Of a DNA stretch of 46,899 bases, positions 24,143 through 27,397 are shown piece by piece (positions within the stretch are counted from its first letter, which is position 1; each line of letters opens with the position of its first letter). This stretch comes from Lysobacter sp. GTDB lineage: Bacteria > Pseudomonadota > Gammaproteobacteria > Xanthomonadales > Xanthomonadaceae. The stretch is taken from assembly GCA_043775395.1 (NCBI GenBank), contig JAYVSK010000087.1, positions 1-46,899 on the forward strand, written 5' to 3'. The notes below the pieces were generated by a model. That model was not told where the DNA came from and did not search any database. It was given only the letters and a program-made list of their open reading frames with translations. The position numbers and the translations under genes are program-made.

Positions 24143-25543
24143 ATGATCACCAAGTCTGACAACAACAATGCCTCCATGACCCCGCGCGAAATCGTGCAGG
24201 AACTCGACCGTCACATTATCGGCCAGGGCGGCGCCAAGCGCGCTGTCGCCATCGCGCTGCGCAACCGCTGGCGGCGCATGCAGCTGGACGATGCGCTGCG
24301 CGACGAAGTGATGCCGAAGAATATTCTGATGATCGGCCCGACCGGCGTCGGCAAGACCGAGATTGCGCGCAGGCTGGCGACGCTCGCCAATGCGCCGTTC
24401 GTGAAGGTCGAAGCCACGCGCTTCACCGAAGTCGGCTATGTCGGCAAGGATGTCGAACAGATCATCCGCGATCTGGCCGACACCGCAGTCAAGCTGTATC
24501 GCGAACAGGCCAAAGCACGCGTGCGCGCGCAGGCCGAGGCGCACGCAGAGGACCGCATTCTGGATGCGCTGTTGCCGCGTCGGCAGCCGTCCGCCGGCTT
24601 TGGTTTCGGCGCCGCTGAATCCGGCGCGGGCACGCTGGATGTCGGCAGCGGCGAAACCCAGGATAAAGCCAGCGACACCCGCCAGAAATTTCGCAAACAG
24701 CTGCGCGAAGGAACTTTGGACGACCGCGAGATCGAGATCGAAACCGCGGTCAACGTCGGCGTCGATATCATGGCGCCGCCGGGCATGGAAGAAATGGGCC
24801 AGCAGCTGCGGCAGATGTTTTCCAACCTGTCCAACAGCAAGACCCACAGCCGCAAACTCACGGTGCGCGCCGCGCGCGCGCAGCTGATCGAGGAAGAGGC
24901 CGGCAAGCTGGTGAACGAAGACGATGTGCGCGAGGCCGCCATCGAAGCCTGCGAACAGCATGGCATCGTCTTTATCGATGAGATCGACAAAGTCGCCAAG
25001 CGTTCCGACAGCCATGGCGCCGATGTCAGCCGCGAAGGCGTGCAGCGCGACCTGCTGCCGCTGGTGGAAGGTTCAACCGTCAGCACCAAATACGGCTCGG
25101 TGAAAACCGACCACATCCTGTTCATCGCCAGCGGCGCGTTTCACGTTGCCAAGCCCAGCGATCTGATTCCCGAGCTGCAGGGCCGCTTCCCGATCCGGGT
25201 TGAACTGGGCGCATTGGGCAAGGACGAATTCGTCCGCATCCTGACCGAACCCAAGGCCGCGCTCACACTGCAGTATGTCGAACTGCTGAAAACCGAAGGT
25301 GTGCAGCTGCGCTTTGAACCGGATGCCATTGAGCGGCTCGCCGAGATTGCCGCGATCGTGAACGATCGTCAGGAAAACATCGGTGCCCGTCGGCTGCACA
25401 CCATTCTGGAACGCCTGCTGGATACGCTGAGCTTCGAAGCGCCGGACCGCGACGGCGCGCAGGTGACCATCGACCGTACCTATGTCGATGCGCAGCTGGG
25501 CGAGCTGGTGAAAGACCCTGACCTATCGCGCTACATCCTGTAA
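24143..25543 (+). CDS. hslU: ATP-dependent protease ATPase subunit HslU
   Basis: [33 protein letters not shown] and the DLSRYIL C-terminus. Confidence 0.98.
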
Positions 25544-25563
25544 ATCAAGCTGCGATGCGATAC

Positions 25564-25590
25564 AAAAAACGGCCTGTGCCGCATAGGCCG
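25564..25590. terminator. Hairpin downstream of hslU
   Basis: A6 tract followed by the stem cggcctgtg/cataggccg. The U-tract lies on the minus strand. Confidence 0.4.
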
Positions 25591-25828
25591 ATCTTGCTGC
25601 TTATGCTGTGATCATGGGGCGCTGTTTGAAGCGCTTCACTACGTGAGTGACCGAGGCTTGACCCCGTCGTATCCGGGCGTGCGTTCATGGTGGAGCTTGT
25701 GAATGCAGGTACGCAATGTTGCAGACATGATGGGTGTCGTTTTCAAGCCATTGGTTTTTCAGAGGTTGTATTGTCGCGCAAGCACAGGGGAATACCAGCA
25801 ATATGAATGTCAACGTGAGGATATCGAA

Positions 25829-27280
25829 ATGACTGGGTCAGCCATTCCTCTGAGTCCTGAAGCACAGTCGCTTCTGTCGGCCCATCAACAGCTCGGGACG
25901 TTGACGCGTCCGCAGTACGACAATCTTTTAGACACCATTCGCGCATCCCCCACGCTGTCGCAACAACTGAACGAAGCGGCGGGCAGTGGGCATTTGCAGG
26001 GGCTTTATTTCGAGCCGGTGGCTACACTTGGTGCCGGCGGTGGTTACTCTCAGGGGGATCGAGCGATCAGTATTCCCAGTGATCGCCTGGGCGATCCTTC
26101 AGGTGCTGACTTTATGCCGGCGCAGTTGGCCTTCGTTCTTGGCCATGAAGTGCAGCATGCGGTGGATGTGCCGGAGATGGATTCGGCCAAGGCCGCTTTT
26201 TTAAGCGACCTTGAGGGCATCAGCCGAAATGCTGATCTCGCGGGCGCTACCGTGAAAGATTACACCGCACCAACAGCCGAATTGATGACAGCTTATCGCT
26301 GGGACGAGGCCCGCGCACAGATTGCCGGGTGGAATGCCAGCGTCGATGTGGTGCAGTCGCAGCATCCAGATGCGACATTAGCGGATATTGTCCAAGCCAA
26401 CCCGGGCTATGCGCAGCTGTTCGTTGATGATGCATCGGTACATCCCGGATCGTACTCGATGAAGCCCGGCATCAGCTTGGGTCCGGATATGGCTATCCGT
26501 CCGACGCAAGCCAACTTGGAGTCGGTGGCCCAAAGTTATTTTGATTTACCAGCAACAACGGCCCGGATCGGCGATAACGCCGATATGAACTATACGCAGC
26601 TCTATGGAAGAGAAGTGCTGGGCTTCATCGAAACCCACGAGCAGCACTATGGTTCAGCTCTGCCTGGACAAGGGCCCATCCCGATTCAATTGAATATGGC
26701 ACAGCTGGGTTTCGACGAGCGCATCATGGAAGGGAATCAGCTGAATCTTGGAGCTGCCGGAGACTACCTGCCGTATCTGGATACCAGTCGGCTACCGCCA
26801 GCACCACGCATATTGAACGATACGTTTATCGACGCTGCCCCGATCTCACCGTTGATCGAACAACCGGTTTCTTTCGGCGTGAAAGACGGCCATTCCGCAA
26901 TGACGCATCCGGCCATTGGCTTGGCGCAAGGCTTACTCGACCGCTCGCCCAATATCCCTGCCGATGCGTTCGGCGAGGATCGTCCGCGTGTCGCTGCAGG
27001 CGTCGCGGTGCACGCAGCCAATCAGCAGATCGTGCCGGATCACATTGTGCTCAACACGTGTCAGTCCGATCTGATCGCCGTGCAGGGCTGCCTCGGTGAT
27101 CCCGCTGCGCGCCTGTCCACGCCGCTTCGGGTCGCAGATGCGGTGAAGACCGATCCGGCTGCGGCCCAGTGCACACTTCATACTTTGCAGCCCGTGCAGC
27201 CGCAGGTTGAGCCGCTGGCGCGCAGCGTCACGATGACACCGGACAATCCGACCCAAGATGCGGTGCGCCACGTGCGCTGA
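25829..27280 (+). CDS. Candidate X-T4SS effector 1: HExxH domain plus C-terminal XVIPCD-like domain
   Basis: GAGGA RBS and no signal peptide. FVLGHEVQH (26144-26158), DYTAP and DEARA motifs. C-terminus THPA...DHIVLN...DLIAVQG.LGDPA....V.DA with a Q/P-rich tail ending in R. Confidence 0.75.
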   Translation: MTGSAIPLSPEAQSLLSAHQQLGTLTRPQYDNLLDTIRASPTLSQQLNEAAGSGHLQGLYFEPVATLGAGGGYSQGDRAISIPSDRLGDPSGADFMPAQLAFVLGHEVQHAVDVPEMDSAKAAFLSDLEGISRNADLAGATVKDYTAPTAELMTAYRWDEARAQIAGWNASVDVVQSQHPDATLADIVQANPGYAQLFVDDASVHPGSYSMKPGISLGPDMAIRPTQANLESVAQSYFDLPATTARIGDNADMNYTQLYGREVLGFIETHEQHYGSALPGQGPIPIQLNMAQLGFDERIMEGNQLNLGAAGDYLPYLDTSRLPPAPRILNDTFIDAAPISPLIEQPVSFGVKDGHSAMTHPAIGLAQGLLDRSPNIPADAFGEDRPRVAAGVAVHAANQQIVPDHIVLNTCQSDLIAVQGCLGDPAARLSTPLRVADAVKTDPAAAQCTLHTLQPVQPQVEPLARSVTMTPDNPTQDAVRHVR

Positions 27281-27355
27281 TCGCGACGCCGTCATATGCA
27301 GCTGAAAGGATGAAAAACCCAAGTTCGTTCAATAGGTGTCAGGTGTCGGGTCGAG

Positions 27356-27397
27356 GAGTTGTCCGCTGATCCGGACTTGTCGCGTTACATCTTTTGA
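27356..27397 (+). repeat. Diverged duplicate of the hslU 3' end (att-like scar)
   Basis: gagttgtccgctgatccggacttgtcgcgttacatcttttga reads [13 protein letters not shown], against hslU 25502-25543 [13 protein letters not shown]. Confidence 0.85.

What the first reader, a model, noticed from the sequence alone, without database searches (positions are those of the whole stretch)
25502..27397. Effector gene sits in an integrase-free islet bounded by a recoded duplicate of the hslU 3' end
Seen: the last 13 codons plus stop of hslU (gag ctg gtg aaa gac cct gac cta tcg cgc tac atc ctg taa, [13 protein letters not shown]) recur ~1.85 kb downstream in non-coding DNA as gag ttg tcc gct gat ccg gac ttg tcg cgt tac atc ttt tga ([13 protein letters not shown]). 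Most differences in the DPDLSRYI core are synonymous. The copy now used by hslU has codons that look atypical for this genome (cct, cta). Only one gene lies between the copies: an XVIPCD-type effector with atypical codon usage. Established: integrative elements that target a gene's 3' end restore it with their own copy and displace the native end, and the HslU C-terminal tail is needed to activate HslV. Inference: hslU acts as an attachment or recombination site for single-effector cassettes, stacked in front of a resident immunity-effector pair. There is no integrase in the islet, so the mobilisation is in trans, by homologous recombination, or from an eroded element. I am not aware of this being described.
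Basis: partly seen in the sequence, partly recalled or inferred. Interest (0 to 1): 0.85.

Follow-up and report, generated by a model that had tools for sequence, protein, structure and literature searches.

The report
Displaced hslU end marks effector gain
A second copy of the last 42 bases of the housekeeping gene hslU is the gene's original end, pushed 1.85 kb downstream when a predicted secreted antibacterial-enzyme gene arrived with a replacement end, most likely by ordinary one-sided recombination with a relative's DNA rather than by a dedicated mobile element.

Summary
The downstream copy (27356-27397) matches the hslU end of the closest relative G033 at 39/42 bases and runs on into the same lipoprotein-effector block. 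G033 is an empty-site allele. The end in use matches it at 29/42. So effector 1 arrived with a replacement end and displaced the native one. It is a xenolog of the genus's hslU-linked effector (38% identical to effector 2), not a tandem duplicate.

A dedicated attachment site is not supported. Only 2 of 339 other family genomes with the motif have a second end on the same contig. Their copies are 101 and 662 nt long, with unrelated cargo and no integrase seen. In one, a stray ubiE 5' piece is fused to the displaced end, so the donor was a relative's chromosome. G000 has similar remnants at other genes. The codon argument for polarity fails.

Best reading: homology-facilitated illegitimate recombination (HFIR) at an integrase-free hotspot (0.65). 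A weak point is that both junctions map within about 25 nt. The resident lipoprotein is predicted to bind effector 1's HExxH domain (0.61, best control 0.01). This scan reported the same scar type before on other DNA, once at hslU.

The parts
22424..23308 (+). xerC, housekeeping tyrosine recombinase upstream of hslV-hslU; not part of the islet
   Evidence: TIGR02224 365 bits, above the 335 cut-off; also upstream of hslV-hslU in G645, G614 and G535
24143..25543 (+). hslU (466 aa), anchor gene of the insertion
   Evidence: TIGR00390 669 bits; 97% identical to G033 HslU
25249..25384 (+). foreign-looking patch inside hslU (-294 to -159 from the stop); possible remnant of the donor anchor strand or of an earlier exchange
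   Evidence: 15 G000-specific changes in 136 nt against 11 in the 545 nt upstream (Fisher p 1.7e-5, window chosen after seeing the data); 3 G033-specific and 5 G008-specific changes in the same patch
25385..25476 (+). native-like stretch of hslU (-158 to -67)
   Evidence: 2 differences from G033 in 92 nt; 12 or more from all other relatives compared
25502..25543 (+). copy 1: incoming replacement end in use ([13 protein letters not shown]); first diagnostic base at 25508
   Evidence: 29/42 to G033 and to G008, 38/42 to G032; 12 G000-specific changes in the last 37 nt, none specific to G033 or G008
25544..25828 (.). 285-nt incoming spacer, low GC, with a hairpin at 25569-25589; no lipoprotein remnant found
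25829..27280 (+). effector 1: orphan X-Tfe-type protein with an N-terminal HExxH (H106 E107 H110) zincin-like domain and a C-terminal XVIPCD
   Evidence: start chosen because the 78% relative P0002 begins there
27281..27355 (.). 75 nt of incoming DNA ending at the illegitimate joint (27355/27356)
   Evidence: no significant match to relatives' intervals or to the own genome; no significant likeness to ubiE 5' regions
27356..27397 (+). copy 2: displaced native hslU end ([13 protein letters not shown]), non-coding
   Evidence: 39/42 to G033, 38/42 to G008; contiguous 88.8% match to G033 over 27356-29670
27494..28114 (+). resident lipoprotein, predicted immunity protein (X-Tfi-like)
   Evidence: 93% identical to G033's; directly upstream of the effector in 28 of 28 genus loci with a full effector; complex model
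28186..29667 (+). effector 2: resident HExxH + XVIPCD protein
   Evidence: PF20410 29.9 bits; 92% identical to G033's ortholog
29761..30540 (+). ubiE, right-hand core gene of the variable interval
   Evidence: PF01209

Best explanation
The 42-nt downstream copy is the native end of hslU, displaced when DNA carrying a replacement hslU end and one predicted antibacterial secreted enzyme was spliced in, most likely by homology-facilitated illegitimate recombination with a piece of a relative's chromosome. Shown by comparison with relatives: which copy is native, the empty-site allele, the extent of the insert (1,854 nt) and that the cargo is a xenolog. Inferred: a donor fragment 'hslU 3' part - spacer - effector' paired with the resident hslU as its single anchor. 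Events that keep a full HslU tail would be favoured because the tail activates HslV (abstract of PMC4106860). Also inferred: the effector came without its own immunity gene and may be tolerated because the resident lipoprotein of the same family covers its active site.
For: (1) Polarity: copy 2 is 39/42 to G033 and continues into the same downstream DNA. G033 is the closest relative, 92-95% over flanking DNA. The hslU tree puts G000 inside a 100/100 clade whose other two alleles (G033, G008) both end in ELSAD. (2) No fixed crossover point: displaced ends are 42 nt here, 101 nt in G508 and 662 nt in G645. (3) In G645 the displaced end is fused to a ubiE 5' piece (codons about 20-59 by tblastn, 134/159 nt to that genome's intact ubiE further on) with a 3-nt overlap at the joint, so the incoming DNA was a relative's hslU-to-ubiE interval. 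PMC3240628 (passages) gives 3-10 bp microhomology as typical of HFIR joints. (4) Cargo differs and no integrase was seen: two unannotated low-GC ORFs in G508; sigma factor, LuxR-type protein and a repeat-rich autotransporter-like protein in G645. (5) The motif was found in 0 viral contigs. (6) hslU-ubiE is a high-turnover interval in the genus, 2.3-7.0 kb in the 34 of 39 loci that reach ubiE, with no XerC-like hit in any. hslU itself appears exchanged: G008's allele groups with G000 although its flanks are only 81-86% identical. (7) Short remnants of gene ends occur at five other genes of G000. At the C325 gene, G033 lacks the inserted gene and is closer to the downstream copy (88% against 84%). 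(8) Effector 1 and P0002 are sister to the hslU-linked effectors of G008/G014 (SH-aLRT 98, quick tree). (9) A foreign-looking patch lies at -294 to -159 of hslU; patchy donor tracts are reported for natural transformation (abstract of PMC13344027). A ComEC-family gene is present.
Against: The visible donor tract in hslU is short. The stretch -158 to -67 is native-like (2/92 differences from G033), so the last crossover lies within about 25 nt of the right-hand joint, and both copies share GAG(C/T)TG. That coincidence is what a single crossover of a circle predicts. HFIR needs it to be chance or patchy repair. The -294 to -159 patch has no identified donor (closest relative 19/136 differences) and could be a separate event. 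The donor locus was not found: P0002's contig could not be reached and the metagenome scan gave only 26-36% relatives, so the microhomology at this joint cannot be read. In E. coli conjugation HFIR was rare and partial duplications came mostly from circularisation plus single crossover (PMC3240628, passages), which fits G645 equally well. All 28 genus loci with a full effector have a lipoprotein gene upstream, so a donor without one is unusual. Natural competence is not shown by one comEC match. The effector tree is the unfinished quick tree, and effector 1 has a long stem and odd composition.
Confidence: 0.65

Rival explanations
1. A small circle, or a larger integrative element that has since lost its integrase, carried its own hslU end and entered by one site-specific crossover in the GAG(C/T)TG core, with the recombinase supplied in trans.
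For: Left and right junctions coincide within about 25 nt, and the 122 nt before the replaced end look mostly native. The geometry is that of integrative elements that restore a target gene's 3' end (recalled: e14/phage 21 at icd). G000 has two further tyrosine-recombinase matches that were not examined (C99, C276), and the genome is 85% complete.
Against: The shared core is only 6 nt with one mismatch. No inverted repeat of 6 bp or more was found at the hypothetical circle junction. The same joint does not recur: 0 of 39 genus loci, 2 of 339 family genomes with other joints, 0 same-contig pairs in 144 genomes of a second genus, none among 98 order-level or 249 class-level genomes with the motif, and 0 viral contigs. 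No listed empty-site joint in the source runs (contigs drop rare variants).
Confidence: 0.17
2. Mirror, two-step history: the lineage first swapped its whole interval for 'ELVKD end + effector 1' by ordinary double crossover, then regained 'ELSAD end + lipoprotein + effector 2' from a G033-like donor anchored on the right (ubiE side), with the illegitimate joint on the left.
For: It explains the short foreign tract in hslU without coincidence. The interval turns over often. G000's ubiE start resembles G008/G014 more than G033, and G000 lacks G033's second lipoprotein gene.
Against: It needs two events. The lipoprotein-effector 2 block is 88.8% identical to G033, no closer than the 92-95% background, which fits vertical descent.
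Confidence: 0.1
3. Plain tandem duplication of hslU end + immunity gene + effector, with later loss of one immunity gene.
For: Effectors 1 and 2 are homologous over their whole length.
Against: They are 38% identical while effector 2 is 92% identical to G033's. They fall in different clades. No lipoprotein remnant is in the islet. The end in use, not the spare one, is the diverged one.
Confidence: 0.03
4. Assembly or binning chimera of two strains.
For: The genome is a fragmented assembly. Two other double hits (G614, G535) lay on separate contigs and look like strain mixtures.
Against: One contig of an independent assembler spans 25171-29800 with 1 differing base and flat depth in both runs (these runs may be the source of this DNA).
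Confidence: 0.01

Closest known systems
Homology-facilitated illegitimate recombination (HFIR); described in PMC3240628 (passages read), which cites Prudhomme 2002, de Vries & Wackernagel 2002 and a P. stutzeri study (not read; the two PNAS papers were not held)
   Same: One homologous anchor, one illegitimate joint, an insert of about 1-2 kb, no integrase. G645 shows a 3-nt overlap at its joint.
   Different: Here the replaced recipient DNA is the anchor gene's own sequence, so the product looks like a pure insertion with a duplicated gene end. The visible donor tract is short. Competence and RecA dependence are untested.
Sequential displacement of T6SS effector-immunity modules in Vibrio cholerae (Kirchberger 2017, PMC5361080, passages read), and Rhs C-terminal displacement as cited there
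   Same: A new toxin gene enters at the front of an array just behind a conserved anchor, without an integrase, and pushes older material downstream. Orphan immunity genes accumulate: extra or effector-less lipoprotein genes are seen in many genus loci.
   Different: The secretion system is a T4SS (XVIPCD), and the anchor is an unrelated housekeeping gene. The old effector is kept. The incoming piece has an effector but no immunity gene, the reverse of the Vibrio pattern.
Integrase-free HGT hotspots that recombine at flanking core genes (Oliveira 2017, PMC5635113, passages read)
   Same: A variable interval between two core genes (hslU, ubiE) with high turnover, signs of recombination in the flanking gene and no mobile element seen.
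   Different: That paper proposes double homologous crossovers, which leave no displaced end. The word 'illegitimate' does not occur in it.
Integrative elements that target protein-coding 3' ends, such as e14 / phage 21 at icd
   Same: Replacement end in use, displaced native end at the far side, synonymous divergence between the two.
   Different: No integrase, no constant crossover point, no recurrence, no excision seen.
X-Tfe / X-Tfi pairs of the Xanthomonadales antibacterial T4SS (PMC8740702 and PMC6536674, passages read)
   Same: C-terminal XVIPCD, N-terminal catalytic-type domain (HExxH types are listed in PMC6536674) and an upstream lipoprotein partner for effector 2.
   Different: Effector 1 has no upstream partner gene, although PMC8740702 says X-Tfe genes are always paired with upstream inhibitors. 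Its XVIPCD scores just under the Pfam cut-off.

Membership tests
Integrative element with attachment site in a gene's 3' end | Replacement gene end in use, displaced native end at the far boundary | tested here: met
Integrative element with attachment site in a gene's 3' end | Integrase encoded within the element | tested here: not met
   Only effector 1 lies in the islet. PF00589 matches in G000 are xerC and two on other contigs. Serine recombinases and transposases were not searched genome-wide.
Integrative element with attachment site in a gene's 3' end | Constant crossover point across independent insertions | tested here: not met
   42, 101 and 662 nt in the three cases; only three cases, from three genera
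Integrative element with attachment site in a gene's 3' end | Excision to a circle or an empty site in the population | tested here: inconclusive
   No such joint listed in Logan contigs, which drop rare variants; 18 joints not shown
HFIR product | Donor-derived homologous anchor on one side | tested here: inconclusive
   Last 36 nt foreign and a foreign-looking patch at -294 to -159, but -158 to -67 native-like
HFIR product | Non-homologous joint on the other side | tested here: met
   Likeness to G033 starts abruptly at 27356
HFIR product | 3-10 nt microhomology at that joint | tested here: inconclusive
   Donor sequence not found for G000; 3-nt overlap in G645
HFIR product | RecA dependence and linear donor DNA (natural transformation) | not testable with these tools
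   Only a ComEC-family match
X-Tfe (Xanthomonadales T4SS effector) | C-terminal XVIPCD | tested here: met
   PF20410 E 5.5e-5, 24.1 bits against a 24.9 cut-off; fold matches 7r6s (Z 13.4, rmsd 4.6, 103 aligned) and 7mu9 (Z 8.5, rmsd 2.5, 76 aligned)
X-Tfe (Xanthomonadales T4SS effector) | Cognate immunity gene directly upstream | tested here: not met
   None for effector 1; met for effector 2 and for 28 of 28 full effectors in genus loci
X-Tfe (Xanthomonadales T4SS effector) | Host carries a VirB/VirD4 T4SS | tested here: inconclusive
   VirD4-type and VirB10/TrbI matches present; VirB4 family PF03135 not found in an 85% complete genome
X-Tfe (Xanthomonadales T4SS effector) | T4SS-dependent transfer and toxicity to other bacteria | not testable with these tools
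   Needs competition assays
Zincin metallopeptidase | HExxH on a helix within a zincin-like fold | tested here: inconclusive
   H106, E107 and H110 are invariant in 37 sequences and lie on helix 97-112. Best fold matches are zinc peptidases but only at Z 5-7, for example Wss1 Z 6.2, rmsd 3.4, 108 aligned. No Foldseek match at E <= 0.001.

The most novel reading that the evidence does not exclude
The hslU 3' end is a true attachment site for integrase-free mini-cassettes. Each carries a replacement HslU tail and a single T4SS effector with no immunity gene, is inserted at a 6-nt core by a recombinase acting in trans, and lands directly upstream of a resident immunity lipoprotein that neutralises it, so effectors can be stacked under one shared antidote.
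Probability: 0.12. Interest if true: 0.7.

Novelty: new member of a known kind. Interest (0 to 1): 0.32.

Why it matters
It is a clean, polarised example of how an antibacterial T4SS effector repertoire can grow without a mobile element. The empty-site relative fixes the direction, and G645 exposes the donor as a relative's chromosome. It extends the displacement model from T6SS/Rhs arrays to X-T4SS effectors. One twist can be tested: the effector came alone and sits before a same-family immunity gene that is predicted to bind it. It also warns that 'replacement end + displaced end' is not by itself evidence of an attachment site. The mechanism class is known and this scan has seen the scar at many other genes, so the surprise is modest.

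Tried and rejected
Codon usage as a marker of which copy is foreign: rejected. The idea that the islet's last 75 nt are a decayed donor ubiE start, as in G645: not significant against 32 ubiE 5' regions (best p 0.043 and 0.05 uncorrected; own ubiE p 0.09). Search for the donor locus: metagenome scan gave 26 loci at 26-36% identity; P0002 is a singleton without accession and was not found in GTDB contigs; no genus genome has an effector above 43-46% over long matches. Double hits on different contigs were not counted as displaced ends: G614 and G535 (inspected; look like strain mixtures); G775, G310, G397 and G064 (one-mismatch second hits that do not read as the motif); G1050, G1121 and G1148 (not inspected). 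The motif scans miss displaced ends shorter than 24-30 nt or decayed ones, so the frequencies are lower bounds. Promoter scan: 0 sites; terminator-like sites at chance level. Runs X3 and X4 hold only small shares and do not cover the islet, so they are no evidence. Foldseek gave no match at E <= 0.001 for the whole model, and the N-terminal domain was not folded alone. Literature: no held paper had all of 'hslU', 'insertion site', 'genomic island', 'integrase'; a six-term search gave 2 papers, neither mentioning hslU. Subscription papers are mostly not covered and no supplements were read. No look-alike stretch among the scan's earlier windows.
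Full report
Observation. The peptide match scores 49 against at most 31 in 200 shuffles. One gene lies between them, effector 1 (25829-27280). Downstream follow a lipoprotein gene, effector 2 and ubiE. One contig of an independent assembly spans 25171-29800 at flat depth, so the arrangement is not a chimera (those runs may be this DNA's source). Effector 1 is atypical, at the 1st percentile.

Which copy is native. I fetched the hslU-downstream region of 39 of the 42 other genus genomes. G001 and G023 gave no tail match and G066 was not fetched. The closest relative, G033 (92-95% over flanking DNA), ends hslU in [13 protein letters not shown] and has the lipoprotein gene at +97, exactly as after copy 2. 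Copy 2 matches that end at 39/42 and the likeness continues at 88.8% for 2.3 kb. Copy 1 matches at 29/42 and is closest to ELVKD-type relatives (38/42 to G032). A tree of the upstream part of hslU (34 rows) places G000 with G033 and G008 at 100/100, and both of those end in ELSAD. G008's allele may itself come from exchange, since its flanks are only 81-86% identical. So 1,854 nt, consisting of a replacement end, a spacer and effector 1, entered 42 nt before the stop. No genus relative has a comparable displaced copy. Five loci end before ubiE, so they are only partly tested.

What the cargo is. Effector 1 is 38% identical to effector 2, whereas effector 2 is 92% identical to G033's. With its 78% relative P0002 it is sister to the hslU-linked effectors of G008/G014 (SH-aLRT 98, quick tree). 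It is therefore a xenolog and not a tandem duplicate. The model (mean pLDDT 82.8) has a C-terminal domain matching XVIPCD structures (Z 13.4 and 8.5) and an N-terminal domain with an invariant HExxH and weak zinc-peptidase matches (Z 5-7). In 28 of 28 genus loci with a full effector a lipoprotein gene lies directly upstream. Effector 1 has none. A complex model of effector 1 (residues 1-335) with the resident lipoprotein scored 0.61 against a best control of 0.01. That mark was reached by 116 of 157 solved complexes and 2 of 215 mismatched pairs; the runs agree in at least 79% of contacts and partner pLDDT is at least 86. The interface includes H106 and E107. This supports a family-level immunity role. 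It does not show cross-protection: both alignments were mine and are dominated by effector 2-type pairs, close cousins of true partners also pass, and only 17 of 42 interface residues are shared between the two effectors, against 122 of 335 overall. VirD4-type and VirB10-type genes are in the genome; a VirB4-family match was not found.

Is hslU an attachment site? In 400 family genomes, 339 had the tail motif and 4 had it twice (the tally includes unpublished G571 and G502, one match each). Two of the four are on separate contigs and look like strain mixtures. G508 has a 101-nt, 98% copy around two unannotated low-GC ORFs. G645 has a 662-nt, 92% copy around an 11.5-kb block. In G645 the displaced end is fused, with a 3-nt overlap, to a ubiE 5' piece that is 84% identical to the intact ubiE further on. 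The incoming DNA there was a relative's hslU-to-ubiE interval. No same-contig pair was seen among 144 genomes of another genus, 98 order-level genomes or 249 class-level genomes with the motif; these samples overlap in part. No viral contig has the 30-nt motif. A scan of 4,030 ORF ends in G000 gave 23 downstream hits. Of the top 16 inspected, five besides hslU are short remnants of a gene's own end; most of the others are tandem paralogs. At the C325 gene, G033 lacks the inserted gene and is closer to the downstream copy, as at hslU. The scar is thus rare at hslU, variable in position and not confined to it.

Mechanism. HFIR gives this product: one homologous anchor and one illegitimate joint, usually with 3-10 bp of microhomology (PMC3240628, passages). 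It was proposed for T6SS effector arrays with shifted 3' ends (PMC5361080, passages). Integrase-free hotspots with recombining flanks are common (PMC5635113, passages). The hslU-ubiE interval behaves like one, spanning 2.3-7.0 kb with varied content. The main difficulty is local. G000-specific changes cluster at -294 to -159 (15/136 nt) and in the last 37 nt (12), but -158 to -67 is native-like (2/92 differences from G033). The last crossover therefore lies within about 25 nt of the right-hand joint. Patchy donor tracts are reported in transformation (abstract of PMC13344027), but a single crossover in the shared GAG(C/T)TG would give the same picture. Six bases are too few for RecA (general knowledge), no inverted repeat marks the hypothetical circle junction, and the joint does not recur. 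I put HFIR at 0.65, site-specific entry at 0.17, a two-step mirror history at 0.10, tandem duplication at 0.03 and artefact at 0.01. The donor locus, which would decide the matter, was not found.

Novelty. Two literature searches found no paper on hslU as an insertion site (open-access holdings only). The kind of event is published for other loci, and earlier unchecked notes of this scan report the same scar at many genes, one of them at hslU in another genome. This is a new, well-polarised member of a known kind. The untested twist is an effector gained without its antidote in front of a same-family immunity gene. The gene names parE and cysW in the side notes are recalled from sequence likeness and come from no call.

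Noticed in passing
G000 contig C325 (L145): A short-chain-dehydrogenase-like gene has a roughly 135-nt copy of its end 921 nt downstream, around one small membrane-protein gene (about 162 aa). G033 lacks the insert and is closer to the downstream copy. G008 has its own partial copy. Gene labels are recalled from likeness.
   Followed up: partly
G000 contig C15, about 1476-1576 (L146): A 25-27-nt copy of the end of a topoisomerase IV B-like gene (parE, name recalled) lies 100 nt downstream. It is shared by G033, G008 and G002, and G032 has two such copies in tandem, so it is old or recurrent.
   Followed up: partly
G000 contigs C263 (+217 nt), C105 (+133 nt), C231 (+69 nt): Further short remnants of gene ends with no gene between the copies. 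Polarity not tested.
   Followed up: no
L134 (G645:C9), about 15560-16493: A donor ubiE 5' piece with its upstream region and a 1-nt frameshift is fused to a 662-nt displaced hslU end. Upstream cargo is an ECF-type sigma factor, a LuxR-type protein and a 2,648-aa autotransporter-like protein; downstream lies a type III restriction-modification pair.
   Followed up: yes
L133 (G508:C35), 2372-4568: A 101-nt displaced hslU end flanks two low-GC ORFs (228 and 244 aa) with no Pfam or NCBIfam match.
   Followed up: partly
L139 (G062) and L037 (G024), directly after the hslU stop: A 13-nt repeat of the last bases of hslU follows 3 nt after the stop (exact in G062, diverged in G024).
   Followed up: no
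L034 (G002) and L036/L141 (G013), +15 after the hslU stop: A 287-aa low-GC (0.51) ORF without Pfam match follows hslU directly in G002 with no displaced end seen; G013 begins with nearly the same DNA.
   Followed up: no
Genus loci L031-L064, L139-L141, L149-L151: Many loci carry a second, about 50%-identical lipoprotein gene after the effector, and some (G009, G010, G016, G019, G026) have lipoprotein genes with no effector: orphan-immunity arrays. G062 keeps only an effector fragment.
   Followed up: partly
L032 (G008) hslU: G008's hslU groups inside the G000/G033 clade although its flanking DNA is as distant as that of other species, which suggests transfer of the whole allele.
   Followed up: partly
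window 24020-24115: A long imperfect palindromic repeat element lies between hslV and hslU. It matches many other places and contigs.
   Followed up: no
window 30540-31400: A low-GC (0.46-0.55) stretch with two small ORFs on the - strand follows ubiE, another likely foreign patch.
   Followed up: no
G000 contigs C22, C264, C128, C348: Four more distant homologs of the HExxH effector domain (28-30% identity) lie elsewhere in the genome.
   Followed up: no
window 29779-29900: ubiE lacks about four residues before 'DLMSLGIHR' relative to genus homologs (gapped tblastn lengths); possibly a small deletion at a repeat.
   Followed up: no
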